Positions 17,022-49,639 of a stretch of DNA of 64,000 nt are shown one piece after another; position 1 is the first letter of the stretch, and every line of letters starts with the position of its first letter. This DNA comes from Bdellovibrionota bacterium (GTDB lineage Bacteria > Bdellovibrionota_C > UBA2361 > OMII01). The position numbers and the translations under genes were made by a program. The DNA is taken from the NCBI GenBank assembly GCA_044345405.1, contig JBIJBE010000001.1, forward strand, positions 96,001 through 160,000, given 5' to 3'. Below the pieces are notes generated by a model. The model was not told the origin of the DNA. It did no database searches and saw only the letters and a list, made by a program, of their open reading frames with translations.

Positions 17022-17139
17022 GGGAGGGCGGTCATTCCTGACCGCCGTGTTGCGTGAGGTGAAGGTGTTATCGAGGGATGTAACCTTTCGGCGACCAACC
17101 TGTCCCGAGCACAGTCGAGGGCGGAATGGTCGCCCTCCC
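17022..17139. repeat. REP doublet; second unit (17089-17139) carries an internal insert of about 25 bp
   Basis: Unit 17022-17047 is canonical; second reads CGGCGACCA-[ACCTGTCCCGAGCACAGTCGAGGGC]-GGAATGGTCGCCCTCCC. Confidence 0.85.
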
Positions 17140-17143
17140 GAGC

Positions 17144-17171
17144 AAAAAAAGAGGAGCCTCACGGCTCCTCT
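17144..17171 (-). terminator. rpsU terminator
   Basis: GAGGAGCC-TCAC-GGCTCCTC stem preceded by an A7 run on the + strand. Confidence 0.8.
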
Positions 17172-17201
17172 CTCTTTCAATCTTACTCGTGCGAGCAAAG
17201 A

Positions 17202-17546
17202 TTACATGAGGCCTGGTCCCTTGTTGAGACGAGCCTGCTCTTTGCGCTGCTTCTTACGCGACTCTTTCTCCTTGCGCTTGCGGCGCTCGGATGGCTTCTC
17301 GTAGTACTTGCGAGCCTTGAGCTCCTTGAAGAGACCTTCCTTGATGAGCTTACGCTTGAGGATCTTCATCGCCTTCTCGATGTTGTGAGAAACAACTACT
17401 TCCATCGCCCCTGCACGAGCGCGATCATCGCCTGGAGCCGCAGCACGTGGCTCACGTGCTCGTGGAGCACCGCCTACTGTCTCAGTGCTTGTCTTTGCTG
17501 TTGTCTTCTCAGAATCAACTTCGTCGTTCATAGCTCCAACTACCAT
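17202..17546 (-). CDS. rpsU: 30S ribosomal protein S21, possibly with an N-terminal extension
   Basis: EKAMKILKRK, YYEKPSERRKRK; alternative start at MEVVV (17405). Confidence 0.9.
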   Translation of the reverse strand: MVVGAMNDEVDSEKTTAKTSTETVGGAPRAREPRAAAPGDDRARAGAMEVVVSHNIEKAMKILKRKLIKEGLFKELKARKYYEKPSERRKRKEKESRKKQRKEQARLNKGPGLM

Positions 17547-17764
17547 TTCAAATCCATGCTTACATTACGTTCCCTTCTGGGAACCACTACACACGTGTCA
17601 TCCGTGTGATTTAAGGATGTGGTTTTCTATCAAAAAACAGGGGGATAAGTAAAGAGATGGGGATTTTGGGGGCAGGGGGGAAAGATGTACCCAACTCGCG
17701 GAGTGCAGCTTCTCGAGCGTTGGGATGATATTATGATTAGAATCAGTTGGTTAGATGTTATTTG

Positions 17765-17931
17765 CGGCGACCGGGGACGGTCGCCCTCCCGAGTGCGCCT
17801 CTCGATCTGGTAGGGCGGTCGTTCCCCCCTTTCGCTAAAGCTACGGGGGCCAAGCCTGACTGCCGTGTTACATAGGGCAAATGTCCTTTGCCATCCGGGG
17901 TGGTTCGGCGAGCAGGAATGCTCGCCCTCCC
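17765..17931. repeat. REP triplet: 17765-17790, 17809-17865 (with insert) and 17906-17931
   Basis: Two canonical units plus one with CCCCTTTCGCTAAAGCTACGGGGGCCAAGCC in its loop. Confidence 0.85.
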
Positions 17932-17954
17932 GTCGTGCCAATCGTAACGGGGGA

Positions 17955-18863
17955 TTACCCCAACTCAATCACCGTAATCTCCGGCGGACAGTTAACCCGT
18001 ATCGGCAGCCCGACGACCCCAAGACCCCGCGAGGTGTACACATACCCCGTATCGATATCGGTGAGTCCCGACATGAAGCGGGGATCCTGAACGGGGATGA
18101 CCACCCCCATCAGTCCCGGTACACGAACCTGTCCACCGTGTGTGTGTCCACACAGCGCGAGGTCGAAAGCGTTTTTCTCCTCTTCAAGGAGCATCGCTAC
18201 GTAATCCGGGTTGTGACTGAGAAGTATGCGGGTCGACACGGTCGAGCGAGGGGGAGGTTTGATCGGGAAGCCGGTGAGAAAATCATCGACACCGAGAAGC
18301 TCGATCGACGCATCGCCCCGCGCGATATGGTGTGACTCGTTGATCAAGATTCGTAGTGAGGGATGCGCGCGAGCGGCCATCATGAACAACTCGATCGAAT
18401 TCCAATGCTCGTGATTTCCCACGACACCTACAATTCCGTCGGGGAAGGTGTACGTAGCGATGAGGCCACACACGTCGGAGAACGCCTTGCGCGCCATCTC
18501 CTCGCGGGACATGTCCAGATAATCGGTATTTCGTATGCACCCAGTTGTGTCCCACAACGGGTTGTCGCTCACAAAGATGTAGTCGCCACCAAGAAGGAGG
18601 ATATCGACCTTTTCACGCTGGAGCGTTTCTATCGCGTCGGTAATCCACGACTGCGGAACCCAGAGTCCTAGGTGAAGGTCCGTAAGGTAGCCGATACGGT
18701 ACCCTTTGAAGGCACGAGGAAGGTTCGGAACGGAAAGCTTGAGCCTCTCCAGTACGGGTGTGCCAGTGTAGCCATCGGAGCGCATGTCGCGTGTAACCGC
18801 GGCGACGGCGATACCTGTTCCCGCGAGTGTGGCTGATTGAAGGAGTGCGCGACGAGAGAGCAT
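17955..18863 (-). CDS. Calcineurin-like metallophosphoesterase (YkuE/YaeI type) with Tat-like signal
   Basis: SRRALL, TDLH, GGDY, GNHE, SHNPD, GHTHGGQ. Confidence 0.9.
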   Translation of the reverse strand: MLSRRALLQSATLAGTGIAVAAVTRDMRSDGYTGTPVLERLKLSVPNLPRAFKGYRIGYLTDLHLGLWVPQSWITDAIETLQREKVDILLLGGDYIFVSDNPLWDTTGCIRNTDYLDMSREEMARKAFSDVCGLIATYTFPDGIVGVVGNHEHWNSIELFMMAARAHPSLRILINESHHIARGDASIELLGVDDFLTGFPIKPPPRSTVSTRILLSHNPDYVAMLLEEEKNAFDLALCGHTHGGQVRVPGLMGVVIPVQDPRFMSGLTDIDTGYVYTSRGLGVVGLPIRVNCPPEITVIELG

Positions 18864-18902
18864 GAACACTTATACGCCGGAACGGAGCGTCAGGGGAGGG
18901 GC

Positions 18903-19502
18903 TTACTCGGTTAACCCTTTGCGGCGTGACCATGCTTGGCGCGCGCGATGGGATCTGACCGCCATCGCCCATCCTCCTGAGCGAATCCACGCGTTCATCG
19001 CGGAGATGTCGGGGTGTCTGGCTTCAAGGGAACGAAACTCAGCGCCATGCCATTGGCGCTTTCCACTTTGAAGGTGAACCCCCTCGCCAATAACGGCGTG
19101 ACAAAGCTCATGGTAGAGCACGGGTGCTATCCATCGACACGCGGTTGGCTCAAAGAGCTCCTTCGCCACTACGACCCTTCGGCGCCTGATATTGCAGGAA
19201 GCGAGAACCCGCTTCTGCGCGCGGCTACTCCACGCGACGACGTAGGAATCGAGCTCGGGACGATCGGGATAGTACTCCGCTCTCAGGTTCGTCCATAGGT
19301 TGTGGAGAAACTCGTCGCTCTTTCCCTGGGCAGAGCCCCTCGTTACTCGTGCTTGACGACGACGCGGGGAACGAACGGCACGTTGTGTTGTCCTCGAAAA
19401 GAGAAGCTCGATCTGTCGTATGAGCGTTCGGGCTGTGCGGTTAGATATCGTCATCTTTGAGGTCGATAAAAAAGATGCCAGCGAGGAAATCAGCGAACTC
19501 AT
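18903..19502 (-). CDS. SprT-like zinc metalloprotease domain protein
   Basis: VLYHELCHA followed by WHGAEFR. Confidence 0.75.
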   Translation of the reverse strand: MSSLISSLASFLSTSKMTISNRTARTLIRQIELLFSRTTQRAVRSPRRRQARVTRGSAQGKSDEFLHNLWTNLRAEYYPDRPELDSYVVAWSSRAQKRVLASCNIRRRRVVVAKELFEPTACRWIAPVLYHELCHAVIGEGVHLQSGKRQWHGAEFRSLEARHPDISAMNAWIRSGGWAMAVRSHRARQAWSRRKGLTE

Positions 19503-19995
19503 CGACGCATACCCCGCCGTACGCGCCGGCTACAAGAAGGTCGGCTCCGAGGCCAATCTCTCCCGGGCACACATTTCGGTCCGAAGAGTTTACATACGCC
19601 GGGCCAACGCCGAACTCGTTGCTCGATTCTATAAGGAACGGCATCTGTCTTCCGAAGTCTCCAACGCGCAGAGACGCTGGTGCCATCTGACGATAGCCAA
19701 TCTCACCGTACTTGGTGACTCGAACCACCGCCCCGAACGATGGCCCTACACCCACGTCGACTCGAAACACATCGATAAGGTCCAGCACGCGGTTCGGAAG
19801 CCATAACAGTATCTGCGACCAGATCGGACTTCCCTCGCCTTTCTCGATCGGTTCGAGTTTCGACCATCCCTCTTTGGGGCTGGTGGGGACGAGGTCATTG
19901 TAATTTCCGTCGGTGTATCGATCTTGGGCGACCGAGGGCTGCGCAGAGCACAGGACTACGGCACTGAGAAGAAAGGAGTGGAATATGTGTCGCAT
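19441..19995 (-). CDS. Hypothetical secreted or outer-membrane protein
   Basis: Signal peptide, NRVLDLIDVFR, Gly-rich beta strands, D-rich end. Confidence 0.7.
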   Translation of the reverse strand: MRHIFHSFLLSAVVLCSAQPSVAQDRYTDGNYNDLVPTSPKEGWSKLEPIEKGEGSPIWSQILLWLPNRVLDLIDVFRVDVGVGPSFGAVVRVTKYGEIGYRQMAPASLRVGDFGRQMPFLIESSNEFGVGPAYVNSSDRNVCPGEIGLGADLLVAGAYGGVCVDEFADFLAGIFFIDLKDDDI

Positions 19996-20055
19996 GCGAA
20001 CCTGTATACCACCCGAGGGCATCGGGGTGAACTGGGAATATTGGCTGGGACCCGG

Positions 20056-21327
20056 CTAGGCCACCAGCACTCCAATGAGCTCCGCGTGATAGGTCTGCGG
20101 GAACATATCGAGCATCTTCACGCTTTCGAGTTTGTAACCCCGTTCAACCAACACCTGCACATCGCGGGCAAACGTCGGAGGATAGCAGCTTACGTAGACC
20201 AGCTTCGTTGATACCGATGGCGAGAGACGCTGACAAACCTCAAGAGCACCGCTTCGAGGGGGATCGAGTACGACGGTTGCGTCAGGAGTGTGCGCGTCGA
20301 TCCACTTCTCACACCCTTGGTGGTGGAAGGTGAGCGCGGCTCCGAGATCGGCGGCGGCGGATCGTGTTTGTCCGAACTCAACGAGGTGCCGATCGAGCTC
20401 CACCGCGGTGACGATGTGACCAGCTTGCGCGAGCGGAATGGAGATATTCCCGGCGCCGGCGTACAGGTCGGTCACCCGCTCAGTAGTGACGTGCTGTTTG
20501 ATGTAGTCGATCATGAGGTCGTTCGCGGCGCGATTGTTCTGCGAGAAGTGCCCAACAGGTGGGGCATCGAGCGACCGCCCTTCAGCTTTGAAGATCGGTT
20601 TATGACGATAGTTTACCTGAACGTTCGGTACCCGTTTGAGGAGCTCTTGAAACGCCACTTTGGGCGCGAGGGTCGTCATCGCTTTGTCGTTTCGTGGGTG
20701 AACCTCAAGAGCGATGAAGATCCCTTCATCGTGATCCTCAATCGTCACCGTCTCACACTCAGGGGCGCAATGACGGAAGAGTTCGAGGTTCTCCTTGAGG
20801 CAGTTGTTGATCGCTTCCGTTGAGATCGGACAGTGATCGATCTCAACGATTGAGCGGGCGTGCTTTCGATAGAGACCGAACTCGCCCTTCTTATTGATGT
20901 GGAACGACATGCGACGTCGATAGGTGAGTCCGGGGAGGTCATCACCAAGCACCTGAACATCTCCAGGAACCTCGATGCCTCCGTGAACACGAAGAAGATC
21001 GGCGACCATCTGCGACTTGAGGCTCCGTTGCTTCGGGAGGTTGATGTGCTGGAGGTCGCATCCACCGCACTGACCAAAGGCGGGGCAGGGGGGCGTTATA
21101 CGCTCGGACGAGGGGTTCGCGACGGAGATAAGCGCCCCGTTGACGAAGCTTTTTTTGTTGAGGGTGATGTTCGCGATAACGTTCTCGCCAGGAGCGGTAT
21201 AGGGGATAAACGCCTTCTTGCCCGCGTGCTTCTCTGGAGCTGTGATAGTACCCACGAAGCTCCCTCCTGAAGCGAGGCTTGAGATGGAAACGGCGATCTC
21301 TTCGGGGGCTTTGGTGTCTGAATTCAT
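20056..21327 (-). CDS. rlmD: TRAM-domain 23S rRNA m5U methyltransferase (RlmD/TrmA family)
   Basis: CPAFGQCGGC Fe-S motif, DLYAGAG, LDPPRSG, YVSC, DMFPQT. Confidence 0.85.
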   Translation of the reverse strand: MNSDTKAPEEIAVSISSLASGGSFVGTITAPEKHAGKKAFIPYTAPGENVIANITLNKKSFVNGALISVANPSSERITPPCPAFGQCGGCDLQHINLPKQRSLKSQMVADLLRVHGGIEVPGDVQVLGDDLPGLTYRRRMSFHINKKGEFGLYRKHARSIVEIDHCPISTEAINNCLKENLELFRHCAPECETVTIEDHDEGIFIALEVHPRNDKAMTTLAPKVAFQELLKRVPNVQVNYRHKPIFKAEGRSLDAPPVGHFSQNNRAANDLMIDYIKQHVTTERVTDLYAGAGNISIPLAQAGHIVTAVELDRHLVEFGQTRSAAADLGAALTFHHQGCEKWIDAHTPDATVVLDPPRSGALEVCQRLSPSVSTKLVYVSCYPPTFARDVQVLVERGYKLESVKMLDMFPQTYHAELIGVLVA

Positions 21328-21444
21328 AGGGGCAGAGGGTACCATTCCTCAGGATTGGAGGCAAAATTGGCGCCATGCCTCTATGCTGAGTGCGATTTCA
21401 CGCAGATACCACCGTGAGAGCTCACGGATGGACGCAGAGCTCGA

Positions 21445-24297
21445 TTAGTTTACCGCGCGCTTCTGAAAGATTCTGAGATCGTTTCCGTATGCCCCTAGGA
21501 ATCCGTCCGCGAAGAACTTAGGCATGATAACACCATTTAACGGAGCTCCCTTCTCGTCGAAGAAGAATTCGGTCGACCCCGTTGTTGGATCGAAGAGTCG
21601 TTCCCCTGAACTTGAATACACCTTCGGTGTCCAGTTGCGATCAGAGGACCAGATGTAGATGTTGCCTCGATCGTCCGCCGACATTCCCATGTTGAACATG
21701 AGTGCGCCAACTATCTTGCCTGTGGTTCCCGTGATGATATTTCGATAATAGGTTCCGACCGTCGTCCCGACGTAGAGGGTGTCTCCGATCCAAACGAGAC
21801 CGGTGACGGCTTGGTCCTTAACCACCCAGGTCGTGGTTTCAACCTTCTCTCCTTTGGTGATGAAGATCCTTCCGTCGGCGCACAGCGTGGCGACTCTATC
21901 TCCTTGCTGGTCGAAGTCGGTCACTGGACAGCCGAAGTCGTGCAGTTGCTTCTCCGTTGTTCCAACTAAGGAGAAAATTTTAGCTCCTGAACGCAACATG
22001 AGGAGGGGAGTTCCCGCACGACCTAGTTTGACGAAATCTCCAATTTGAAAGTCCAAGATCTGCTTCGTCGTGTTCGAGGCGCGGTCGAAGGAAAATATCC
22101 CCTTCATAAAGGAAAGAATCGTCTCGTTGCCGTTCCGGGCACTAATTGAGCGTAGGGGATCGAGGTCTCGTTGAGGAAAGGACTCCCTCGCCTCATAGAC
22201 AAACGAGGCGGGCTTACCTGAATCACCCAGGTTTTGATTTGCCCACGCGTTAGCGTCTGGGGGCGAGAATCCCCACAGCAGCTCTCGGATAGGGCTTGCG
22301 GCTCCGTCTTTCGTTTTGGCGAACAGTTTCAGCTCCGCCGCCTTGTGTTGCGCGACGATCCGAACCGGGTGGAGTCCAGCGCCGAGAAAGGCGAAATGCC
22401 TCTTGGCGCTCTGATCAGAGCATGACATCACCTCGATAGTTCTATCGTCGACGATCAGCTGTGGCCTTACGTTGTCCTCAGAGCAGAAGGAATGCACCAC
22501 ATCCTGAGCTACGCCGAGAAAGCCTCGGGATTCGATCTCATTACCCACCGGGGTCGCAGGAGCCTCTTTAAGGCTAAAAACATCTGAGACCGGTATGCTG
22601 ACTCGAAGTGCCCGCGGGGCAAGATTCTCGGGATGTTGATCGTGTGGAGGAGGTACAGGAAGGGAGTGTACAACGAGGTTGGGGTAGAGCTTTCTGAGGG
22701 TGGTATCGATAAGGCGTTGAGAGCCCTCGGAAGGGATGAGGTAGAGCTCCGCACCTTGGGTGCCCTGAACGGCGCTGGGTTCGAACCAAGGCACGTCGGG
22801 ATTAAATACATGCAGTTTTCTGACGAACGCGTACTCGGGGAAGCCTTGGTCACACAACGTCCACAAACTCTCTCCGAATTCCCGTCTTGGTATCCACACG
22901 GAGTGAGTAGAGGTCAGCGCCCGCATCTCGTCCCGCAAATGTGTCGCTGGATTCGCGTAGGGGCTGAAGAAGGTGTAGGTCGGTCGAACTAGCGACACCA
23001 TATAGTTGGTAACCGCCTGCTCACCGAGGAGAGCGATAGGGGCAAGGCCGAGAAAGAGCGCTCTACCCCCTCCAAAGGCGGCTATCAGCGTCTGACCACT
23101 TCTCACGAGACCTTGTCCCGCGAGGCAGTACACGCTGAAGAGGAGACCCGTCATGTACATGTCATGCGCCCAGGTAACCATGATCCCAACGAAGAATAAG
23201 GTGAAGTTGATAACCAGCAACGCGGATGGGATCGACGACCTAAATCGTCGCACCGCCCCGAAGAGGCCAACCAGAAACAGAAACGCGACGGGTGCGGTCA
23301 CGAAGGAGGTTCCGTATTTGCTTGTTGAAGAGGAGAGGGCCCAGAGCAAAAACTCAAGGTTACGGACCACCTTGTGGAGAAAGACGTTGTCTCCGTAATC
23401 GAGTTTCGACTTTATATATCCGGAGGCGCCGAGCTCCGGTATCAATACGTACAGAACCGGTAAGGCCAGGCACGTGGCGAGAAAGGATGCCGTGAAGAGG
23501 GGGCCAAGGTATCGCCGAGCTTGGTCTCGGTGAAACGCCACAAGGTAGACGAGGAATACCGCCCAGGTGCCGCCCAAGACGTAACATCCCCAGTATGCGT
23601 GGAGGCCAAGAATGAATCCGATCGCGGCCACGACCGCTCCGAGGTAGCGATGTGAGCGCTTGATCCCCGTTGCCGCGACGATGAGTCCAAAAAGGGTGAT
23701 ACTTTCACAAAACGGGAGGAGGAACTTTTGCATCAGAAATCGCGAGATCCAGATGTGCCATGGCGATGTGGCCATAAGCCCGATACCGATCCATGCCGCT
23801 TTCGAGCCAACGGCGCTCAGTGCGCGAATCGCGAAGAAAGACGTGATAAGTGTGAGGAAGCTCACAACGGCTGTGGCGGCCCGGAAGCCCCACTCCCAAT
23901 CTGAAGAGAGGAGCATGCCGAGCGCACCTATGTACGCATACAACGTATGCATGTACCCGACATACGGTGTATACCAGAATCCCTCGGTGAGAAATCGTGC
24001 TGAGAGGCTTGTGAAGAGTGGCGTTTCCGCCATATCCGCGCCACTCGGAACGGTATCGAGGTAGCTGAAGCGGTAGGCGAGCCCAAGAGCAAACGCAAGC
24101 ACCAAGCCAATTGTAGAGAGCGAGGAGCGGCGCTCTCCCTCAAGGGGAGAGGAAGCGGACCACGGCCCCCCGAGCAGTATCGCCACCGCGAGAGGGATCG
24201 CTACCATCCATAAAGGCTGCTCTGAGAGTTTGGGAAGGATCCAGATGCTAGCGCCGATACCGCCACATAATAGCAGTCCGAGGAGTTTCTTAACCAT
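21445..24297 (-). CDS. GT-C (ArnT/PMT, GT39-like) membrane glycosyltransferase with large extracytoplasmic domains
   Basis: Many TM segments, PSGADMAE acidic loop, SPWHIWISR, PA14-like GLHPVRI, beta-rich C-terminus. Confidence 0.7.
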   Translation of the reverse strand: MVKKLLGLLLCGGIGASIWILPKLSEQPLWMVAIPLAVAILLGGPWSASSPLEGERRSSLSTIGLVLAFALGLAYRFSYLDTVPSGADMAETPLFTSLSARFLTEGFWYTPYVGYMHTLYAYIGALGMLLSSDWEWGFRAATAVVSFLTLITSFFAIRALSAVGSKAAWIGIGLMATSPWHIWISRFLMQKFLLPFCESITLFGLIVAATGIKRSHRYLGAVVAAIGFILGLHAYWGCYVLGGTWAVFLVYLVAFHRDQARRYLGPLFTASFLATCLALPVLYVLIPELGASGYIKSKLDYGDNVFLHKVVRNLEFLLWALSSSTSKYGTSFVTAPVAFLFLVGLFGAVRRFRSSIPSALLVINFTLFFVGIMVTWAHDMYMTGLLFSVYCLAGQGLVRSGQTLIAAFGGGRALFLGLAPIALLGEQAVTNYMVSLVRPTYTFFSPYANPATHLRDEMRALTSTHSVWIPRREFGESLWTLCDQGFPEYAFVRKLHVFNPDVPWFEPSAVQGTQGAELYLIPSEGSQRLIDTTLRKLYPNLVVHSLPVPPPHDQHPENLAPRALRVSIPVSDVFSLKEAPATPVGNEIESRGFLGVAQDVVHSFCSEDNVRPQLIVDDRTIEVMSCSDQSAKRHFAFLGAGLHPVRIVAQHKAAELKLFAKTKDGAASPIRELLWGFSPPDANAWANQNLGDSGKPASFVYEARESFPQRDLDPLRSISARNGNETILSFMKGIFSFDRASNTTKQILDFQIGDFVKLGRAGTPLLMLRSGAKIFSLVGTTEKQLHDFGCPVTDFDQQGDRVATLCADGRIFITKGEKVETTTWVVKDQAVTGLVWIGDTLYVGTTVGTYYRNIITGTTGKIVGALMFNMGMSADDRGNIYIWSSDRNWTPKVYSSSGERLFDPTTGSTEFFFDEKGAPLNGVIMPKFFADGFLGAYGNDLRIFQKRAVN

Positions 24298-24554
24298 AGT
24301 AGTACCTGTCAGAGGAGAACCTCTCTTCCCCAAACATACGCAGTAGTGAGGGGAAGGAGAGCCACCCTGGCAAGGGGAGGATGTGTCCTTGTGCGCTCGT
24401 GCCGATCGGCCCCACGTATCGAGTTTAGTATAAAAGTAAGGCGCGAGCTATCCGCTCTTATCAGGAGCGGGGCTTGGTAGAACGTTTTTTCGCGCCGGAT
24501 GTGCCGTGCGGTCCTATCCCGTACTCGCAGCCCTTATGGTCGGGCCCCTGAGCC

Positions 24555-31089: not shown

Positions 31090-31094
31090 GACGA

Positions 31095-37079: not shown

Positions 37080-37091
37080 GGCCTCGTAGGG

Positions 37092-37117
37092 CGGTGACCA
37101 GGCAGGTTCGCCCTCCC
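37092..37117. repeat. Degenerate single REP unit
   Basis: CGGTGACCAGGCAGGTTCGCCCTCCC. Confidence 0.65.
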
Positions 37118-37267
37118 GACTTACCCGGTCCGATTCCCAAACCACCACCTCCGTATAGCCCCAACCCATTACCGTGCAATATCGGTCCACTATCTCACTT
37201 TTCCGAGCATCGAACGGGACCCTGCGGCATCCGAATTGTAGGGTGTATTGTTTTCCCGGAGGCTTAT

Positions 37268-40080: not shown

Positions 40081-40093
40081 TAACGGGAACAGA

Positions 40094-40525: not shown

Positions 40526-40678
40526 TGCTCAATACTACCCCTAGGCCATCACGTACCCCATCCCAAATGTGACTGGTGGTTTTTCGTAGGGATGCCCCTA
40601 GTCTTTGAGGATTGGGGTAGGCCCCTGATTAGACTAGCTCGGTCGGCCTGTTACACTAGGGGTCGCCAGGAGAGCGAG

Positions 40679-42301
40679 ATGCCCCCTCACGCACATGGAC
40701 TACACATCAAGGATGTCGATTGGAAGAGTGGACTGTCGCTGCCGAAGGCGCGCGCGCGTGGTCGTGATGTTGAGGAGTATCCAACTACCGTTCTCGGGGA
40801 ACTGGCGTTTCGAATTCGCGAGCTCTACTGTCGCGATAACGATCATCCGCGGCCGACCAGCGTAGAGCTCGCGCAGACCGCGCGGCTTGTTGGTCTTCTC
40901 TCCCAGGAAGTTCAGGGAGCGCCGCTCTATAAACGCTCCCCCGATGAGCTCGAGCTCATTAACTACCTCGTCACCCCACGGGTCCTTTGGAGGGAGGTGG
41001 TACCATTTCATCGGGCGATCCAGACGATCGTGGCTGAGCGTTTCGCGGAGGACGGGGGCGCGATAGCGGCTTTGCTTGGTCGCGCGTGGAGTGGAGGGGA
41101 GGGGTCGGTGTCGGTCTACTATCTCCAACAGATAGCGATCCATCTCTGCATGGTGGGGAACGTCCACAAAGAGGTCGCCAAAGTGGTTGCCTCCTCTATA
41201 CCTTCTCCGCGGCGAGCCGCGATGAGCGCTTCCCTTACGGGAGGGGCGTTCGCTCTGCTCGCGATGTGCGGTCAGCTCGGTGAGGAGCGTGCCAGCCGAC
41301 TTCTCTTAGGGGTAGGGCTGGAGGCGCTGGCACGGGCTGAGATGGTGGATAAGTTGTTCGTGCTCGATCCGCTCTCGCGGCCGACGGAGTATCGGTTCGC
41401 TTCGTATTTTCTGGCGGACCTTCTTCGAGCTCATCTCTCAGTCCATCCAAAGGAAGCAGGCTCGGAGTGGGCACCAACTGACGACGAGGTCCTCGATATT
41501 ACGCGGTCGTGGCTTGAGGGAAGTCACTTCCCTGTAAGGAATTTCCTGCGGCACTGTAACGCTCTCCGAAGAGACCTCCTTGCTCCTTCTCTCAAGGAAC
41601 TCTACTACCGGAACGGAATTCGAAACTTTCTGCGCCTCGAGCTCCGGGAGTGTGACGACCCGTGGTTTCTCATGAACTACCTCTCGGATCGAGACGCCCG
41701 CGCCACCGCCGGTCGTGATATTATCTTGGTCGCGATGAGTAGTGGCGATCACAACGACGCGTTTAGTGAGCGAAGTTGGGAATATGAAGCTATTCGATCG
41801 GCTGGGGATTCCCAAGGCTGGGAATTCGACTACGTCGAAGTCCGAGATAGCGTGGAGCTCGGGTATCACATCCTTCGACACCACGATCAGGGTTCCCGGG
41901 TGGCGGTACTCCATCACCTCGGTCATGGAAGTCGGGAGGGCGCCGAGTATGGCCATCTGGAGCGTGAAGGGAGGTCGCAGCTCGACCTCGCTACCTTATG
42001 TACGAACCGAGACCACGCTGAGGTGTGTTCGATCGCGGCCGCGGCTGTCGATACGTGGGTTTTGCATCATTGCTCAACCGCGGCGCCGGACACGGATCGA
42101 ACCCGAAAGATCTCTAATCTGAGAGAGGCGCTTCACAAGGCCACCGATGGGAAGGTGAACGTCACGGGTCTAAGGGGCAACGACGCTTTCGACGAGTTGA
42201 CCCACAGACGAGACTCGCGGGGCCGGGTCATCTTTACAGGCAGGGCTGTGTGGATGGGAGCGCAACGAGCGCAACGACGGACGAGAGGCGCGGAGGGATA
42301 A
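40679..42301 (+). CDS. Hypothetical protein with a C-terminal clan CD (His-Cys) peptidase-like domain
   Basis: DHNDAF, LHHLGHG, WVLHHCST; AGGAG RBS before ATG 40679. Confidence 0.6.
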   Translation: MPPHAHGLHIKDVDWKSGLSLPKARARGRDVEEYPTTVLGELAFRIRELYCRDNDHPRPTSVELAQTARLVGLLSQEVQGAPLYKRSPDELELINYLVTPRVLWREVVPFHRAIQTIVAERFAEDGGAIAALLGRAWSGGEGSVSVYYLQQIAIHLCMVGNVHKEVAKVVASSIPSPRRAAMSASLTGGAFALLAMCGQLGEERASRLLLGVGLEALARAEMVDKLFVLDPLSRPTEYRFASYFLADLLRAHLSVHPKEAGSEWAPTDDEVLDITRSWLEGSHFPVRNFLRHCNALRRDLLAPSLKELYYRNGIRNFLRLELRECDDPWFLMNYLSDRDARATAGRDIILVAMSSGDHNDAFSERSWEYEAIRSAGDSQGWEFDYVEVRDSVELGYHILRHHDQGSRVAVLHHLGHGSREGAEYGHLEREGRSQLDLATLCTNRDHAEVCSIAAAAVDTWVLHHCSTAAPDTDRTRKISNLREALHKATDGKVNVTGLRGNDAFDELTHRRDSRGRVIFTGRAVWMGAQRAQRRTRGAEG

Positions 42302-42305
42302 GACC

Positions 42306-43664
42306 CTATCCGTTTCCGTCGGGCGAAAGGCCCTTCGCGAGCCTCTCTTCACGATCGTATCGGTTCAACACAGAGTCCCATAGCTTTTCCACCTTCGCCG
42401 CCAGGTCCTTTTTTGAGGCCTTCGATAATTTCTTCGACTCAGCTAGTTTTTCAAGCTTAGTATCCTTAATCTCTTTGACGTAGGCGCGGCGGCTGTCATA
42501 GAGCGCCTCGATCTGTTGGTCGATCGATGCCTCGCTCAGGTCTACCGCCTGAGCCGCGTCCCGCAAGACCTCCTCAAACTTGCCGTGCTGAACACCGATA
42601 CTGAGAAAGACCTCAGCAGTTTGAGGGGTGATGTCGAAACCTAGTTTTTGTGCCTCTTTCAGAACCGGCGTAAGATGTGTGTCGAGGATAAAGCCGTGTT
42701 GAAGTGCTGGAAAGTCGCGCGGGTTCGTACGGGCGAGATAGCTCCAGTCCCGCTTAAACTCACTCGAGGATGGCTCATGGTCACGCAGAGCTTCGTATGT
42801 TCGTGCGGCGAGGCGTTTCTGCTCTGGAGAGAGGTCCGAGTCATTTCCGGCGTTCTTAAGGTAGCGCATGAAGCCTGGCATCGTTCCCTCGGCTATCTGG
42901 TAGTGCCCCCACGAAGCGCCGCCGGGATCGGCCGCCGCATTGGAATACGCGTCGGATTTCCCCTGCGATTCAAAGGCGCGGCACAGTGCTCCGAAGTCAC
43001 TCTTGAGGCCACTCACGAACCCGTCGATGTTTGTCGGGTTGGTTGACCTCTGCACGGGAGGGGCTGCTGGTGATTGTGGTGGCGGTGTGACGCTCTCCTC
43101 AAGGAGACTTCGCGGGGCATCATACGGCACGTTGATCATTTTACCGGCCAGGATGAAGGCTTCGTCTTTGTGACCGTTTATCGCCTGCAAGAGGGCAGGT
43201 GTGGTGTTGAATTCTTTAGCGAGCGCCGAAAGGGTGTCTCCAGGTGATACCTGATAGCGCACGATGGACGGTTGCTCTTTGGTGGGAATGCAGATCCGTT
43301 GTCCCACGCGGAGCGTGTTAAGGTTACAATCGTTCATCTCCCGCATCAGAGCGAGCTGTTTCTCAAGGGGATGTCGACTTGATGCCACGCTTTGCGCTAT
43401 CTCTGACGCGGTATCTCCCTTCTTGACGGTGTACGTTGTCATTCGTACGAGCGTTGGCTCTGTTTCGGTCGTCGCGGAAGGCTCGTTTGTCGCGGGCGGC
43501 ATAGCGCCTCTCGCGATCGCGCGTCTGGCGTCCTCTCGGTTTGTGGTTGAACTTGGTGGAAGGGTTGAGTCAGAGAGTGCTGGATATGAGGCGGCCGGGT
43601 GCGTCTGTGGTGGCACCTGCTCCGGTGTTGAGGGGCTCTTAAGCGAGGCGACGGTAAGTCCCAT
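42306..43664 (-). CDS. Two LysM domains plus a lysozyme-like muramidase domain
   Basis: YTVKKGDT and YQVSPGDTLS LysM; FES...DPGGASWGHYQ, SIGVQHG, NRY..E. Confidence 0.8.
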   Translation of the reverse strand: MGLTVASLKSPSTPEQVPPQTHPAASYPALSDSTLPPSSTTNREDARRAIARGAMPPATNEPSATTETEPTLVRMTTYTVKKGDTASEIAQSVASSRHPLEKQLALMREMNDCNLNTLRVGQRICIPTKEQPSIVRYQVSPGDTLSALAKEFNTTPALLQAINGHKDEAFILAGKMINVPYDAPRSLLEESVTPPPQSPAAPPVQRSTNPTNIDGFVSGLKSDFGALCRAFESQGKSDAYSNAAADPGGASWGHYQIAEGTMPGFMRYLKNAGNDSDLSPEQKRLAARTYEALRDHEPSSSEFKRDWSYLARTNPRDFPALQHGFILDTHLTPVLKEAQKLGFDITPQTAEVFLSIGVQHGKFEEVLRDAAQAVDLSEASIDQQIEALYDSRRAYVKEIKDTKLEKLAESKKLSKASKKDLAAKVEKLWDSVLNRYDREERLAKGLSPDGNG

Positions 43665-43902
43665 AAAAAACCTTCTAACGATCTCTCGATAGTTTATGCG
43701 GGATCGTTGGAGGGGTGTGGCATAGTGGGGCCACTGGGGACGAGCCGTGCGAGGTTTTCGTACGGGGCCCCCCGAATGAGGGAGCGCTCCACAGCCGAAA
43801 GAGCATGTTGTTGTGCGACGTTGCGGCGGTACATCCGCACAACATCGATAGTCGCAGAGGTGTGGAGTGACACCGACTGTCGTTTATGTCGCACAGGTTT
43901 CT

Positions 43903-45180
43903 ATGAGTAAAACATCCCCCCTCATAAACATCTTCAGCGCCGACCCCAAAGCCTCTATCGTTCCGGTGCGGGTCGATGGACTCTCTTTTCCAAAACTTGA
44001 GTCTGCGGGGCTTCTCGCTTCAGCCGACTATTCCAAGGTTGAAGGACGCGGAACCTACGAGGAGTTGGATAACGGTTCTGGGCGCCACCGTTACGTAAAG
44101 GGGGCCGGCAATCTTGAGTCGCTCCGGTCGCGGGGAGAGGATGACCCTCGATCGTTTCCACAGTTCGGTCACGCTCACTCACGTAAGTTCTTTTTCGGGT
44201 CTGACTCATCGACTACGGGCATCGGACAGACAGCTCCCCGAGTCAGGGGAGCGCTCGCGCTTCCCTACGCTGTCGGCGAAGTTATTAACGCCGCTGTCTT
44301 CCTTGATCTGCTGATGCGTAAAGAGGGGATCTCAACTGTTCAAGCCGCGGAGGCGAAGGGGCTGACGATTCCGGAGGGCGCGATATATTCGCCCGGTATA
44401 TCAGCCGATATCTGTGAGGGGCTCGCACGCGCTCGACGAGAGAGCGGTCGGAACGAAATCTTGGAACGTATCCCGCATAAATACGGTTTGGCGTCCCTGC
44501 GTGTGCCGTCATGCGCACGCCTTCGTACTCGTGAGGATGTGACCACGTCTAAGGGCGAGTTTTGGACCCGCGTGTTACGTTCGCCCGAAAAGATGGAGAT
44601 GGTGGGTCGAGTTTTAAGGCATCAACTACAGTGCGGATTCGTGAGTCTCTCAACGCACCTGCAAAACGTATATGACGCTCCGAATAGTCTCTGTCCTCAC
44701 GCTGATAGCAGTGACCTCGTGCCGATCAGCGAGGTTATGAACGCGGGCGCGCGCGCTGAGGTCGATAAGGAGGTTCTCCTTGAGGCGCTCGTGATGCGAC
44801 AGCTTCAGTACATGCCCTTGAACTTGATGCGCTTCTCGGCGTTGCCTGAGCTTCGAAATGACGCAAAGGGCGCCATTCACACCATCCTTTCCACGATTGC
44901 CCCAGGGGAGTGGACTCACCAGGAGCGGGAGGCGTTGGCGATCTCATTTCCTCGCAAGCCCTACACCGTCCTCTCAACGATCGCGAATCGCCTGATTGAT
45001 ATGAATTTGGTTGATGTCTCGCCTCAGGCGGATTGGGTCAAGATTCAGAGGCAACATTCCCGTTTCGGCTACGATCTTGTGGCTGACCATCTTACGCGGG
45101 TAGCGCTCGCAAGCGCATGCGCCTTGTATACCGGCGTTGTGGAGGCTGAAGCCAAGGGGGGCCTTTCTGACCTCTGTTAG
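43903..45180 (+). CDS. Hypothetical protein, possible SelO/kinase-like fold
   Basis: YVKGAG, GALALPYAVGE, GFVSLSTHLQN, HAD. Confidence 0.6.
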   Translation: MSKTSPLINIFSADPKASIVPVRVDGLSFPKLESAGLLASADYSKVEGRGTYEELDNGSGRHRYVKGAGNLESLRSRGEDDPRSFPQFGHAHSRKFFFGSDSSTTGIGQTAPRVRGALALPYAVGEVINAAVFLDLLMRKEGISTVQAAEAKGLTIPEGAIYSPGISADICEGLARARRESGRNEILERIPHKYGLASLRVPSCARLRTREDVTTSKGEFWTRVLRSPEKMEMVGRVLRHQLQCGFVSLSTHLQNVYDAPNSLCPHADSSDLVPISEVMNAGARAEVDKEVLLEALVMRQLQYMPLNLMRFSALPELRNDAKGAIHTILSTIAPGEWTHQEREALAISFPRKPYTVLSTIANRLIDMNLVDVSPQADWVKIQRQHSRFGYDLVADHLTRVALASACALYTGVVEAEAKGGLSDLC

Positions 45181-45268
45181 GGCTTACCTCTTTGCTGTAG
45201 GCTGATCATGACATCGGATAGTGACGTCTTGTCACGTTTTCGTGATACTGGGAGAGGCTAAGAGCAAC

Positions 45269-46459
45269 ATGAACTACCGCGCGTGGGTCTTTGGTATCGC
45301 CGTGCTTTTTTCTATCGCCTCGGCGCGCGCGCAGAGTGTCGATGTGGATATTCCTCGCAAGCAGCTCGAGCTCGGCGTCTTCGCGCTCAAAAAAGGCGCC
45401 GAACAGAGTGTGAATGTAACGGTTTCTCCCCTGAGTATTCACTCCGCGCTTATGCTGTTACGGTTGGGTGCCCGTGGCGCTGTCGCTCAGGAGATCGATG
45501 AGAAACTTCTGTCCGCTCCGTTTTCGTCCGAGGTGCAGGGGCTCTACACGAACCTGATCTCTCAGATGAATCTTTCGAGCGAGATGGTGACGTCGACCTT
45601 GGCGAACGCGGTATGGCTCCAGTCGGGACTTCCGTTTCAAAAGGGGTATGTTGCGGATTCACAACGAATATTCGCCTCTGAGCCTCAGCACGTCGATTTC
45701 GGGGAGCCGGAGAGTGCCCGGGGCGCCATTAATCGTTGGGTGTCATCGAAGACACACGGCCTCGTGTCTCATCTCTTGCCGGCGGGCTCGCTCTCTCGAA
45801 GCTCGACCTGTGTGCTCGTGAACGCGCTCTATTTCAAGTCAGCGTGGCTTCACGCGTTTGATTCAAAAGCCACCAGAGAGGGGGACTTTTGGAATACTCC
45901 GTCCAGCTCCTCTAAAGTTCCGATGATGTCGAGCTTGAAGAGTATGGGGTACTTTGAAGATGGGGCGTGGCAGGGGGTGCAGCTCAGATATCAGGGGTTG
46001 GACTTTATGTTCGTGGTGCTCGTGCCGAAAGAGAAGCGTTCCGTAGGGGGCGTCGTTCGTGATCTTACCCCTGAACTCTTCACGCGAGCTATTGTAGATG
46101 CTCGTGTTCGTGAGGTGGAGCTCACCCTTCCGCGCTTCAAGGCGCGTTTCTCCATGGATCTGATGGAGCAGCTCAAGGTGTATGGTTTGAACCACCTTGA
46201 ACGTGGGGATTACTCTGGTATCTCTCCTCGCAACGTATCGCGCGTCAGTGGTGTGCTACACGAGGCGGTTGTGAGCGTTGATGAAATTGGAACCGAGGCG
46301 GCGGCCGCGACCGCGATTACGATGGTAGGGGGCGCGATGGTTGAGCCCGACCATGAGGGGCCTACAAAGGTAACGGTGGATCGACCCTTTGCATTCGCGC
46401 TCGTCCAACGCTCCTCAACCGCGCCTCTGTTTGTCGGTGTTGTAGGAGATCCTCGGTAG
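45269..46459 (+). CDS. Secreted serpin
   Basis: SPLSI, INRWVSSKTHG, NALYFKSAW, EIGTEAAAAT hinge, VDRPF. Confidence 0.93.
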   Translation: MNYRAWVFGIAVLFSIASARAQSVDVDIPRKQLELGVFALKKGAEQSVNVTVSPLSIHSALMLLRLGARGAVAQEIDEKLLSAPFSSEVQGLYTNLISQMNLSSEMVTSTLANAVWLQSGLPFQKGYVADSQRIFASEPQHVDFGEPESARGAINRWVSSKTHGLVSHLLPAGSLSRSSTCVLVNALYFKSAWLHAFDSKATREGDFWNTPSSSSKVPMMSSLKSMGYFEDGAWQGVQLRYQGLDFMFVVLVPKEKRSVGGVVRDLTPELFTRAIVDARVREVELTLPRFKARFSMDLMEQLKVYGLNHLERGDYSGISPRNVSRVSGVLHEAVVSVDEIGTEAAAATAITMVGGAMVEPDHEGPTKVTVDRPFAFALVQRSSTAPLFVGVVGDPR

Positions 46460-46464
46460 AGCGG

Positions 46465-46683
46465 TTAGGAATCCGACTCGTCCCCACCTTGGGAGGAGGG
46501 CACGGGATTGGATGCGATGCGATAGTTCTCGCCAAACCACTTTGAGAGGTCGTTCATGCGGCACCGCTCCGAACAGAAGGGAGAGCGGGTTGGATCGTGC
46601 GGCGGGGAAAGGGGAGCCCCGCATATCTTACAATGGGTTATATCCTTATCTGATCTTTGGCTGTTTTTTCCCTGGGTGTTCAT
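46465..46683 (-). CDS. yacG: DNA gyrase inhibitor YacG
   Basis: CKIC...PFCSERC..DL.KWF.E.Y.I. Confidence 0.9.
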   Translation of the reverse strand: MNTQGKNSQRSDKDITHCKICGAPLSPPHDPTRSPFCSERCRMNDLSKWFGENYRIASNPVPSSQGGDESDS

Positions 46684-46728
46684 ACCGTAAGGGTCGCAGA
46701 TGGGAGCTCAGAAAGAAAGGGGAAGCGA

Positions 46729-47004
46729 TTACTCCGCGCTAGGTGCGACCGGCCTAAACTTTACCTCGGTAACCCCAGTTGAGTCCTGCGCGAGTAAGCA
46801 GAGCTGGGTGAATTGCGCCCCTTTCTGAAGGTACGCTTCGTCATCTTTGGATCCCGGCTCAAGGAAGAGAGTGTCAGATTCGAAGTGGTACGCCTGAATC
46901 CGGCGCATCCTGTCGAGGAGCCCGAGCTGTAATTTCTCGTCGAGGTCTGCCAAGAACTTCTCCCACAGTACGGGGTTGTTGCCCTTTGCTACTCCATCGC
47001 TCAT
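46729..47004 (-). CDS. Small hypothetical protein, possibly DnaA domain I/DciA/tau-C-like fold
   Basis: LWEKFLADL helix, DTLFLE strand, VTEVKF strand. Confidence 0.6.
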   Translation of the reverse strand: MSDGVAKGNNPVLWEKFLADLDEKLQLGLLDRMRRIQAYHFESDTLFLEPGSKDDEAYLQKGAQFTQLCLLAQDSTGVTEVKFRPVAPSAE

Positions 47005-47180
47005 GCTCCACCACTATCCTTTTGTAACACCTCCCCGTTGGTCGGATGCAAAGAACACCCGCCTGCGAAGGAAGTTGCATTGTGTAAGGGTTTCGGGAAC
47101 TAAGGTGAAACGTTCGCCGCAGTTCCTCGTTCAGCCTCTACGATGAGTATACCCTGGGAGGCTTGCCCCCCGAAAGTATC

Positions 47181-47235
47181 AAAAACTTAAGGGCGCGATA
47201 TGACAGGGAACTTATTCCCTTCACGTCGCGCCCTT
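47181..47235 (-). terminator. Terminator-like hairpin downstream of the 47301-47591 gene
   Basis: AAGGGCGCGA...TCGCGCCCTT stem with an A run on the + strand. Confidence 0.6.
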
Positions 47236-47300
47236 GATGTATCGATTTTCCGATACCTAGGAGAATTGCGCAGAGGTGTGACCACCTCTGGAGTAACGAC

Positions 47301-47591
47301 TTACGCTAAAGCGTCGTTAGCGGCGAACTCTCGAAGCTGAGCTTCGGCTTGTCGCCCGATAGCCTTTCGAAGGCTCTCGCTGTCGAGGTCAAGAGCCTCG
47401 CAGATGAACTTGAATGAAAGTGGAGCGTCAGTTGGTTCCTCGTCCATGAGCCATGAGCGTGCACCTTCACGAACGTCGCCCTCGCCACCGATGAAGTCAT
47501 GGATTGCCCGTTGAAGAACCGCTGCAAGTAATCGCAGTTCGGGAATCGCTGCACCAGGGGTCGGAACATCAGAATTTGACCAGAATTTCAT
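47301..47591 (-). CDS. Hypothetical protein, paralog of 37268-37630
   Basis: PELRLLAAVL...ARSWLMD...LSFKFICEALD. Confidence 0.8.
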   Translation of the reverse strand: MKFWSNSDVPTPGAAIPELRLLAAVLQRAIHDFIGGEGDVREGARSWLMDEEPTDAPLSFKFICEALDLDSESLRKAIGRQAEAQLREFAANDALA

Positions 47592-48322
47592 GATTGTTGT
47601 CCCATCAAAAAGTTATTCATTCCTGACCATCGCTCTCTCCGAAAACATTTTCGTCGAGCTCTTGAGCCAGAACACCATCCGTTGTCCGTGTATCCAGACA
47701 CCAGATAAAACCAACCGCGCCGGTCTTCCTCTATGACCATCGTCACACCTCTTTCTTCGTTAGTGGGATACACTTTCAAAGATGAGAAGGGTGACCGAAC
47801 GAGGCGACCTCTCTTACGTTCCAGTTCGTTTATCGCGAGGCGTGTAACGCGCTTCCGCGATGCGACTTTCAAGTGTTCGCACCGCTTTTGAACCACTCCC
47901 AACCCTGACTCAACGGAACAAAAGTCCTAGGCCCATTCTGTTCTTCAACGGAGGGCGCTCTATGGACTTTTAACTGCTGAGCTACTATCGAGTGCGATTC
48001 CCGCTCTAACGGACTGACAACCTAAAAAGGTTAAACCCTGAGCAAAACCGGACCCGGAGAATAATCCTTGGGGATCTCGTAGGTCAAGGATTATTTTCGT
48101 CGCGACTGAGATACTTGAAGAGTGCTGGTATCTGTCGCCATCTGTCCGTTTATTAGTGGTTGTGGTACCGCTCGTATGAGCCCGAGCGAGAGGTTTGATC
48201 CCGATAGCGCCGGCGGAGCTTCGAGGGAAGGGTGTTTCGGAGCTCATCGGTTGAAAGTTGGCGTCTATTTCTATATGATTTTCAGCGTCTTAACTAGCCT
48301 AGTGGCATAAAGGGTCGCGAGC

Positions 48323-49576
48323 GTGACGAAAATAGCAGTCGATAAAGGAATTGACCTTCTCCATCCAGGAAAAGGTGTTCGAGAGCACTTCCCCTTCTTC
48401 ACCGAGGGGCCCGGAGGATGTTACCTCGATTCCGCGGCGACAACGCAAAAGCCCGCCGTGGTGCTGGACACGCTCCGTGATGTGCTCGTGAATCATAACG
48501 CCAACGTACATCGTGGCGCGTATCGTCTGAGCGCCGTCGCGACTGAGATGTACGACGAGGCACGTCGAAAGATAGCTCGCTATATTGGCGCGCGCTCCGA
48601 ACGGTCAATTATCTTCACACGGGGCGCTACCGACGCGATTAATCTCGTGGCGTACGGCTCGGAGCTTCTCTTCCAACCTGGCGACGTGATCCTTCTCACC
48701 CTGCTCGAGCACCATAGCAATATCGTGCCGTGGCAGATGCTCGCTAAGCGCCGTGGGCTCAAGGTGGTATTCACCGAGATCACACCCGAGGGGCGGCTCG
48801 ATCTGAACGACTTCAAGGCAAAGCTCTCCTCCTTGAAGCCGAAGTTAGTGGCGTGCACGCAGCTCGCGAACTCCCTCGGGACGATTACGCCGATAGAGGA
48901 GGTGGTGCGGCTTTCAAAAGCGTCAGGAGCGATGACCTTGGTTGATGGCGCGCAGGGGGCCACGCACCTCGGCGTAAACGTGGAGGAGCTTGGGTGCGAT
49001 TTCTACGTGTGCTCTGGCCACAAGATGTACGGACCGACCGGAATCGGCGTCCTCTACGGACGACCGGAGCGTCTTGAGGCGATGCAACCGTTTCTGGGCG
49101 GAGGCGATATGATCTCCTTCGTTAGCGTCGAGGGGGCCGGGTGGGCTGAGGTGCCCCAACGGTTTGAGGCGGGAACTCCGGCGTTCCCTGAGGCGATCGC
49201 CCTCGGGGCCGCGGTTGATTTCCTCTCTCGATTCTCGCGCGCTGAGATTAATCAGCATGAGGTTGATCTGGTGAAGAGCGCGATACAGCTCCTGAAGGGA
49301 GAGCAGGGGGTTACCCTTCACGGGCCAGGCGTTCACGGAGGTGATCAAACCTCGGTGTGCTCCTTCACGATCGATTGTGTTCATCCGCATGATTTCGCCA
49401 CTATCGCCGATACCCACAACGTTCAGATCCGAGCGGGCAATCATTGCGCCATGCCCACCCTTCGAAAGTTAGGGGTCCCGGCCACGGTACGAATGAGCTT
49501 TGGGATCTACTCATGCGAGGCTGACTTTCAAGCGGTTGTGAGCGCGGTGCGAGAAGCGCGGAAGATGTTTTCGTAA
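48323..49576 (+). CDS. sufS: SufS-type cysteine desulfurase
   Basis: YLDSAATTQKP, ANVHRG, EHHSN, SGHKMYGPTG, RAGNHCA. Confidence 0.92.
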   Translation: MTKIAVDKGIDLLHPGKGVREHFPFFTEGPGGCYLDSAATTQKPAVVLDTLRDVLVNHNANVHRGAYRLSAVATEMYDEARRKIARYIGARSERSIIFTRGATDAINLVAYGSELLFQPGDVILLTLLEHHSNIVPWQMLAKRRGLKVVFTEITPEGRLDLNDFKAKLSSLKPKLVACTQLANSLGTITPIEEVVRLSKASGAMTLVDGAQGATHLGVNVEELGCDFYVCSGHKMYGPTGIGVLYGRPERLEAMQPFLGGGDMISFVSVEGAGWAEVPQRFEAGTPAFPEAIALGAAVDFLSRFSRAEINQHEVDLVKSAIQLLKGEQGVTLHGPGVHGGDQTSVCSFTIDCVHPHDFATIADTHNVQIRAGNHCAMPTLRKLGVPATVRMSFGIYSCEADFQAVVSAVREARKMFS

Positions 49577-49588
49577 GGCGAAGGTCCA

Positions 49589-49639
49589 GGGAGGGCGACC
49601 ATTCCTCCCTCGACTGCGCTCGGGACAGGCTGCTCGCCG
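49589..49639. repeat. Single REP unit with a 25-bp internal insert
   Basis: GGGAGGGCGACCATTCC-[TCCCTCGACTGCGCTCGGGACAGGC]-TGCTCGCCG. Confidence 0.85.

What the first reader, a model, noticed from the sequence alone, without database searches (positions are those of the whole stretch)
17089..49639. REP-in-REP nesting: two different short palindromes inserted at the same site in the loop of a host REP
Seen: the empty host unit is GGGAGGGCGnnC-ATTCC|TG-nnCGCCG. Three copies have extra sequence exactly at the TTCC|TG junction. Copies 49589-49639 and 17089-17139 (reverse strand) carry near-identical 25-bp inserts, TCCCTCGACTGCGCTCGGGACAGGC and GCCCTCGACTGTGCTCGGGACAGGT. Copy 17809-17865 carries an unrelated insert, CCCCTTTCGCTAAAGCTACGGGGGCCAAGCC, with its own CCCC...GGGG stem. 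From memory both resemble other dispersed bacterial repeat types (TTCGACTnCGCTCAG-like and TTCGCTAAAGCT-like); not verified. Inference: tiny non-autonomous elements target the hairpin loop of another non-autonomous element, and the composite may itself spread.
Basis: partly seen in the sequence, partly recalled or inferred. Interest (0 to 1): 0.75.

Follow-up and report, generated by a model that had tools for sequence, protein, structure and literature searches.

The report
Tiny mobile hairpins inside REP loops
Two kinds of very small (24-31 base) DNA hairpins sit in the loop of a bacterial repeat, and one kind also turns up as a fresh insertion in an unrelated gene, so it really jumps, but the enzyme that moves it is unknown.

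Summary
Observation confirmed. The window holds 12 REP-like units (9 empty, 3 filled), mostly in doublets of about 92 nt. All copies of both inserts found in the window lie in a REP loop; the junction is shared to within 1 nt.

Insert 1 is a mobile element. A near-identical 24-nt copy sits in frame in a Sphingomonas plasmid traD gene whose four aligned orthologues are empty, with no target duplication. Insert 2 fills the same loop at two non-orthologous loci of another MAG, but no free copy was found. The inserts share an architecture: bulged hairpin plus a 3' CARG tag.

Insert 1's core also forms dispersed repeats in sphingomonads and cyanobacteria. Its readings are enriched in the tails of small GIY-YIG nucleases (31 of 150, shuffled mean 7); insert 2's are not.

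Best reading: SDR-like mini-elements landed in REP loops and the composites were then copied. Active loop targeting versus survival bias is unresolved, and the enzyme is not shown. Precedents exist (SDR5 into HIP1, IS into REP), so this is a new variant of a known kind.

The parts
17022..17139 (.). REP doublet: empty A-type arm 17022-17047 (+), 43-nt linker, filled B-type arm 17089-17139 (-); lies between lptF and rpsU
17098..17122 (-). Insert 1, copy b (25 nt; 4-bp foot, 12-nt bulged core, CAGG tag) in the loop of the B arm
17809..17931 (.). REP doublet: filled A-type arm 17809-17865 (+, GTAG foot), 42-nt linker, empty B-type arm 17906-17931 (-)
17826..17856 (+). Insert 2 (31 nt; C/G-rich foot, bulged core, CAAG tag) in the loop of the A arm
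17765..17790 (-). Empty B-type REP, back to back with the filled unit at 17809
49589..49639 (+). Filled single B-type REP between convergent genes (class-V aminotransferase and CAAX protease); its stem has one C.C mismatch
49606..49630 (+). Insert 1, copy a (25 nt)
610..701 (.). Empty REP doublet (42-nt linker)
2380..2471 (.). Empty REP doublet (42-nt linker)
9065..9136 (.). Two empty REPs back to back (feet inside)

Best explanation
The host is a REP-like hairpin (4-nt foot, 8-bp stem, TTCC loop) organised as foot-outside doublets of about 92 nt, and is probably copied by a RAYT-type enzyme encoded elsewhere (inferred). The inserts are separate, very small non-autonomous elements: a bulged hairpin with a 4-nt CARG tag at one end. 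They enter as a unit, without target duplication, at a pyrimidine-rich site (YC|YT or CC|TK). The REP loop offers such a site, and it is also where an insertion leaves both REP arms intact. The filled arm was afterwards copied with the host family. SHOWN: unit insertion with no duplication for the insert-1 family at one polymorphic site; recurrence of composites at different loci. INFERRED: mobility of insert 2; single-strand recognition; spread by RAYT. Sub-odds: active preference for the loop about 0.45. Mobiliser: small GIY-YIG nuclease about 0.35, Y1/HUH enzyme about 0.35, other about 0.3.
For: L116 (Sphingomonas sp. NBWT7 plasmid, traD) carries an unambiguous 24-nt insertion absent from 4 of 4 aligned orthologues, with no flanking duplication. 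The 8 closest orthologues (80-90% band of 82 matching records) are each 24 nt shorter over the aligned span. It adds 8 residues in frame. A second CAGG-tagged copy is intergenic in L115. All four tagged copies are followed by Y-T. Across 16 core-bearing copies, 96.9% of cells pair and 11 cells change on both sides; 0 of 500 shuffles reach either value; the window copies carry compensatory foot changes. Insert 2 fills the same loop in L017 and L074 beside different genes. Those doublets have 45-nt linkers like that genome's empty one (44 nt), while the window's filled doublet has the window's 42-nt linker. Two independent events both landing in loop junctions has p about 1.4e-5 over non-coding DNA, or about 0.015 against the linker alone (rough estimate). 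GIY-YIG lead: L124's gene is flanked by same-core hairpins; 31 of 150 diverse GIY-YIG tails match insert-1 readings versus a shuffled mean of 7.0, maximum 12.
Against: There is only one filled/empty comparison, in a distant genus, and it is 24 nt while the window inserts are 25 nt, so every boundary model needs a 1-nt irregularity. No free insert 2 was found. No free copy of either insert is in the window. GIY-YIG tails are not enriched for insert 2 (5 of 150 vs 6.2 shuffled). The GIY-flanking repeats have a different tail: 0 of 35 copies in L124, L136 and L137 carry CAGG and none has a loop insertion. Only 1 of 7 fetched GIY-YIG loci had the core. No RAYT or GIY-YIG gene was found in the window. 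The covariation set was chosen partly for having a closing stem, which inflates the pairing figures. Conserved linker length means selection could explain loop-only insertions.
Confidence: 0.7

Rival explanations
1. No targeting. The mini-elements insert at any YC|YT-like site; only loop insertions keep the REP functional, and these are amplified by the host's copying machinery. This differs from the best explanation only in denying any preference for loops, so it is a sub-case of it.
For: Free copies in traD and in an intergenic site are not in REP loops. Linker length is nearly fixed at 42-45 nt, so other positions may be purged. Few independent events are needed: one per family.
Against: Two families, plus a 15-nt third hairpin in L101, occupy the same loop. 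Filled doublets do not form one backbone group. No free copies in 64 kb.
Confidence: 0.4
2. The host's own RAYT cuts the C|T in the loop and joins foreign hairpin fragments (capture rather than invasion).
For: TnpA_REP cleaves and recombines at C|T (PMC8266576, passages). The loop holds CC|TG, and copy 49589 can be read as T...C inserted at C|T. No duplication, as expected for HUH chemistry.
Against: Copy 17089 and the L116 insertion have C|G or C|C and G|T junctions rather than C|T at both ends. The passages seen place cleavage 5' or 3' of the hairpin, not in its loop. L116 has no REP of this family.
Confidence: 0.15
3. The filled units are long-loop sequence variants of the REP that arose in place, like the GTAG-14 long self-complementary loops. 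They are not insertions.
For: Di Nocera 2013 describes REP families with loop variants up to 27 bp. Insert 2 is known here only inside the REP.
Against: Insert 1 matches a free polymorphic insertion in another lineage and a widely dispersed repeat core.
Confidence: 0.1
4. Filled forms are ancestral and the empty units are deletions.
For: No orthologous empty site was available for the window loci.
Against: Two different inserts cannot both be the ancestral loop. 9 of 12 units are empty. The same TTCC-loop architecture is the plain REP in Solibacter (PMC6006769 Table S1) and in loci L057 and L062.
Confidence: 0.03

Closest known systems
Small dispersed repeats (SDR) of Nostocaceae, Elhai et al. 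2008 (paper not held; seen only through passages of citing papers PMC4390886, PMC5861425, PMC2884548; family sizes of 21-27 nt, shared fold and nesting are recalled)
   Same: Repeats of about 20-odd nt thought to be mobile; SDR5 inserts precisely inside another repeat (HIP1); enzyme unknown.
   Different: The target here is a REP loop, not HIP1. The host is not a cyanobacterium. Insert 2 is 29-31 nt. Sequence identity with any SDR family could not be checked.
GTAG-class REP / REPIN with RAYT (TnpA_REP), nearest listed example subclass 2.7 of Quentin 2018
   Same: Host unit: 4-nt foot, 8-bp stem, TTCC loop, extragenic, foot-outside doublets with constant spacer.
   Different: The foot is GGAG in 10 of 12 units. 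The cognate RAYT was not seen. This describes the host only, not the inserts.
IS elements targeting REPs (Tobes and Pareja 2006, abstract); REPINs into REPINs (Bertels and Rainey 2011, passages); REPs inside other palindromes (Di Nocera 2013, sections)
   Same: Repeats as recurrent insertion targets.
   Different: Those invaders are autonomous ISs or whole REPs/REPINs. Here the invader is a 24-31-nt non-coding hairpin sitting in the loop.
CGTC-tagged REPs (Di Nocera 2013)
   Same: Tagged hairpins with no known transposase; alphaproteobacterial distribution overlaps with the sister repeats of insert 1.
   Different: The inserts have a CYTG tag, a 4-5-bp foot with an internal loop and no CCA tail, and they occur singly rather than as dimers.

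Membership tests
GTAG-class REP/REPIN (host) | 5' GT[AG]G tetranucleotide foot | tested here: inconclusive
   GTAG in 1 of 12, GGAG in 10, GAAG in 1. Same-stem units with a GTAG foot occur in L057, L062 and L101.
GTAG-class REP/REPIN (host) | Palindromic stem of 7 bp or more with a short loop | tested here: met
GTAG-class REP/REPIN (host) | Extragenic and multicopy | tested here: met
   12 of 12 units lie outside the long-ORF set
GTAG-class REP/REPIN (host) | Inverted doublets with conserved spacing | tested here: met
   4 doublets in the window (42-43 nt) and 3 in L017/L074 (44-45 nt)
GTAG-class REP/REPIN (host) | Cognate RAYT gene flanked by the REP | not testable with these tools
   None found in the window; the rest of the genome was not available.
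SDR-type very small mobile elements (inserts) | Very small size (about 20 bp in a citing passage; 21-27 nt recalled) | tested here: inconclusive
   Insert 1 is 24-25 nt; insert 2 is 29-31 nt
SDR-type very small mobile elements (inserts) | Mobility shown by filled versus empty orthologous sites | tested here: met
   Insert-1 family only; not shown for insert 2
SDR-type very small mobile elements (inserts) | Precise insertion inside another repeat | tested here: met
   5 filled units, junction within 1 nt; precedent passage
SDR-type very small mobile elements (inserts) | Sequence identity with a named SDR family | not testable with these tools
   Paper not held
CGTC REP (inserts) | CGTC/TGTC/CCTC tag, 8-9-bp stem opening with AT pairs, CCA tail | tested here: not met
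   Definition; alignment
MITE (inserts) | 70-300 bp with terminal inverted repeats (PMC3733652); target-site duplication (established knowledge) | tested here: not met
   24-31 nt; no duplication at L116
IS200/IS605-type non-autonomous element (inserts) | No target duplication; tetranucleotide 5' of a hairpin | tested here: met
IS200/IS605-type non-autonomous element (inserts) | Two subterminal hairpins (left and right ends) served by a Y1 transposase | tested here: not met
   Single hairpin only; no Y1 motif hit in the window or in the loci held (crude motif scan)

The most novel reading that the evidence does not exclude
A widespread family of elements of about 30 nt or less is mobilised by small stand-alone GIY-YIG nucleases, which form REPtron-like loci with their own BIME-like repeats. 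Its CARG-tagged offshoots actively seek single-stranded hairpin loops and hyperparasitise RAYT-driven REPINs, hitch-hiking on their replication. The same nuclease class could be the missing enzyme for CGTC-type REPs.
Probability: 0.2. Interest if true: 0.85.

Novelty: new variant of a known kind. Interest (0 to 1): 0.52.

Why it matters
How elements as small as 24 nt move is unexplained. This case gives a clean polymorphic insertion with defined ends, a candidate target motif, and a candidate enzyme class that can be tested with oligonucleotides. If the GIY-YIG link holds, it would also bear on the open statement that CGTC REPs lack a dedicated transposase. In-frame copies add 8 residues to proteins, a source of small protein insertions. 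If it is only survival bias, it is a modest extension of SDR-like elements to REP loops.

Tried and rejected
I judged 3 of 114 to be real filled hosts (L017, L074, L101). The other 111 were dropped as chance matches, neighbouring empty REPs (e.g. L014, L024, L050, L057, L062) or unrecognised loops (L037, L079). None was orthologous to the window, so filled versus empty at the window's own loci stayed untested. Metagenome and viral contig collections stayed unchecked.

Rfam: no match. Short blastn searches were mostly chance: 2 of 13 real; others (insert 2; phages) gave nothing usable; H111 and H121 were fetched and lack the tag. No empty orthologue was found for L115 or for the Microcystis copies. 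A protein search with the ORF spanning the composite gave only antisense rpsU. No insert was found in 120 TyrRS homologues.

(47 of 120 GIY-YIG tails matching hand-written patterns) is biased, because the query's own tail holds the repeat; one search supersedes it. The automatic search for nested inserts in protein tails (34 of 269) was too noisy to count. P0191 versus P0230 and tails such as P0259, P0335 and P0378 only suggest tagged elements nested in the GIY-flanking repeats; no DNA was seen and the cluster look-up could not be made.

A 2-bp target-duplication model fits 49589 and insert 2 but fails for 17089 and L116; rejected as the general rule. Minimum-free-energy folds of the isolated inserts are weak (-1 to -6 kcal/mol) and were not used as evidence.

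Literature: searches found no description of these inserts in REP loops and no GIY-YIG/REP link; the library lacks most subscription papers, including Elhai 2008. Figures 1-2 and file S5 of PMC3733652 (family consensus sequences) could not be seen and may bear on naming the host family.
Full report
Observation. The three filled units are present at the stated coordinates. A pattern for filled hosts matches 3 times in the window and never in 100 shuffles; the empty pattern matches 9 times and never in shuffles. The 12 units have a 4-nt foot (GGAG 10, GTAG 1, GAAG 1), an 8-bp stem and a 4-nt loop, and all lie outside long ORFs. Eight of them form four foot-outside doublets of an A-type and a B-type arm with a 42-43-nt linker. 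Insert 1 (25 nt, two copies, 22/25 identical) is in B arms; insert 2 (31 nt) is in an A arm. Neither insert occurs free in the window. The genes nearby are housekeeping genes; no RAYT or GIY-YIG gene was found and Rfam is empty. The organism is uncultured; its TyrRS is 90% identical to that of a MAG labelled Pseudomonadota.

Other genomes with the filled host. L017 and L074, from one MAG labelled Proteobacteria, carry 29- and 30-nt versions of insert 2 in the same loop of the same A arm, inside the same kind of doublet, beside genes different from the window's. Their linkers are 45 nt, like that genome's empty doublet (44 nt), whereas the window's filled doublet has the window's 42 nt. The filled copies are therefore not simply one inherited doublet: either the loop was hit more than once or filled arms are exchanged between doublets. 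Linker identities (0.47-0.67) are too low to choose between these. L101 (Lentisphaerae) has a third, 15-nt hairpin in the loop of a GTAG-footed relative.

Insert 1 moves on its own. Plasmid searches found two copies outside any REP. In Sphingomonas sp. NBWT7 traD (L116), a 24-nt copy is absent from 4 of 4 aligned orthologues, the gap cannot slide, and nothing is duplicated. The 8 closest orthologues are each 24 nt shorter, and the protein gains 8 residues. The element ends at the CAGG tag, and all four tagged copies are followed by Y-T. The empty traD site reads CC|TT and the host loop CC|TG or TC|YT. This is the strongest result, but it is a single site, and the window copies are one base longer, so the junction is fixed only to within 1 nt. 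No equivalent was found for insert 2.

What the inserts are. On the tag-first strand both read: CYTG tag, short G/C stem, purine-rich internal loop, two base pairs, small loop (the parallel for insert 2 is my reading of the sequence). The 20-nt hairpin of insert 1 is shared with dispersed repeats of sphingomonads (about 190 places across the S. parapaucimobilis YK209 records) and of cyanobacterial plasmids, which differ in the 4-nt tail. Across 16 copies the foot covaries: 96.9% paired, 11 double changes, 0 of 500 shuffles. These copies were partly selected for having a stem, which inflates those figures.

Candidate enzyme. A recalled link to small GIY-YIG nucleases was tested. Of seven GIY-YIG loci fetched, L124 is flanked by inverted pairs of the same core, L129 and L130 by other palindromic pairs, and four by none seen. 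Among 150 diverse representatives, 31 have tails matching six-frame readings of insert 1, against a shuffled mean of 7.0 (maximum 12). Insert 2 (5 vs 6.2) and the host REP (8 vs 9.8) show no excess. Against a direct role: the flanking repeats carry another tail (0 of 35 with CAGG, none with a loop insertion), and nothing links insert 2 to this nuclease. Lack of duplication and a tetranucleotide foot fit HUH chemistry equally well; TnpA_REP cuts at C|T and the loop contains that step.

Mechanism. Shown: a 24-nt unit inserts without duplication; composites recur at several loci and in two genomes. Inferred: insert 2 is a similar element; the single-stranded loop is a favourable or tolerated site; filled arms are copied by the host's machinery. 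Chance placement of two events in loop junctions is unlikely (about 1e-5 over non-coding DNA, about 0.015 against the linker), but these figures ignore selection, so targeting versus survival stays open.

Comparison with what is known. Di Nocera 2013 (PMC3733652; abstract, parts 1-3 of 8, passages, supplement S2) defines tagged REPs, long-loop variants and REPs inside other palindromes, and says CGTC REPs lack a dedicated transposase. Quentin 2018 (PMC6006769; passages, part 4, Table S1 parts 5 and 7) lists a Solibacter REP with the host's architecture, and P. fluorescens SBW25 REPs with and without extra loop sequence; I saw no comment on the latter in the parts read. Tobes and Pareja 2006 (abstract) and Bertels and Rainey 2011 (passages) show ISs and REPINs inserting into REPs or REPINs. 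Passages in PMC4390886, PMC5861425 and PMC2884548 attest that the cyanobacterial SDR5 element inserts precisely inside HIP1; the primary paper was not held, and further details of it are recalled. Passages of PMC3686654, PMC3337134 and PMC3184786 added nothing on loop inserts. Ten searches found no account of these inserts in REP loops or of a GIY-YIG/REP association.

Verdict. Real, and better supported than the window alone suggested for insert 1. It works like an SDR-type mini-element landing in a REPIN; membership of SDR could not be tested. New variant of a known kind; interest 0.52, with the GIY-YIG lead as the part most worth following.

Noticed in passing
L129:2964-3421 and L130:1315-1906: Stand-alone GIY-YIG genes in Methylobacterium and Sinorhizobium are flanked on both sides by pairs of CCTC-tagged palindromes resembling CGTC-class REPs, for which no transposase is reported. 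REPtron-like layout.
   Followed up: partly
L137:33795-35901: Tandem array (234-nt period) of inverted pairs of the GIY-YIG-flanking repeat in S. parapaucimobilis YK209, like a BIME array.
   Followed up: no
L131:20001-20050 and 21247-21270: Microcystis plasmid copies of the same 20-nt core inside coding sequence, where the 4-nt tail repeats or nearly repeats the 4 nt before the element, unlike the CAGG-tagged copies; no empty orthologue found.
   Followed up: partly
L101:301-340: Third kind of short hairpin (15 nt) in the loop of a GTAG-footed relative of the host REP in a Lentisphaerae MAG.
   Followed up: no
window 49589-49639: The left and right arms belong to different B-type stem variants, giving a C.C mismatch: a point mutation or a recombinant at the insert.
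   Followed up: no
window 37085-37118 and 57365-57380: A double-footed long palindrome that looks like a collapsed doublet, and a lone half REP.
   Followed up: no
PMC6006769 Table S1, RAYT CAY50813.1: P. fluorescens SBW25 REPs are listed with and without about 16 extra nt after the loop tetranucleotide: a possible parallel case of loop filling.
   Followed up: no
window 45221-46459 and 42306-43664: A bacterial serpin gene, and a LysM protein with a VgrG3-like C-terminal domain.
   Followed up: no
window 11969-12035 and 372-458: A 12-nt tandem repeat inside an ORF, and 15-nt lysine/alanine-type repeats.
   Followed up: no
window 52457-54358: Alanyl-tRNA synthetase of only 633 aa, ending at the SAD domain.
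   Followed up: no
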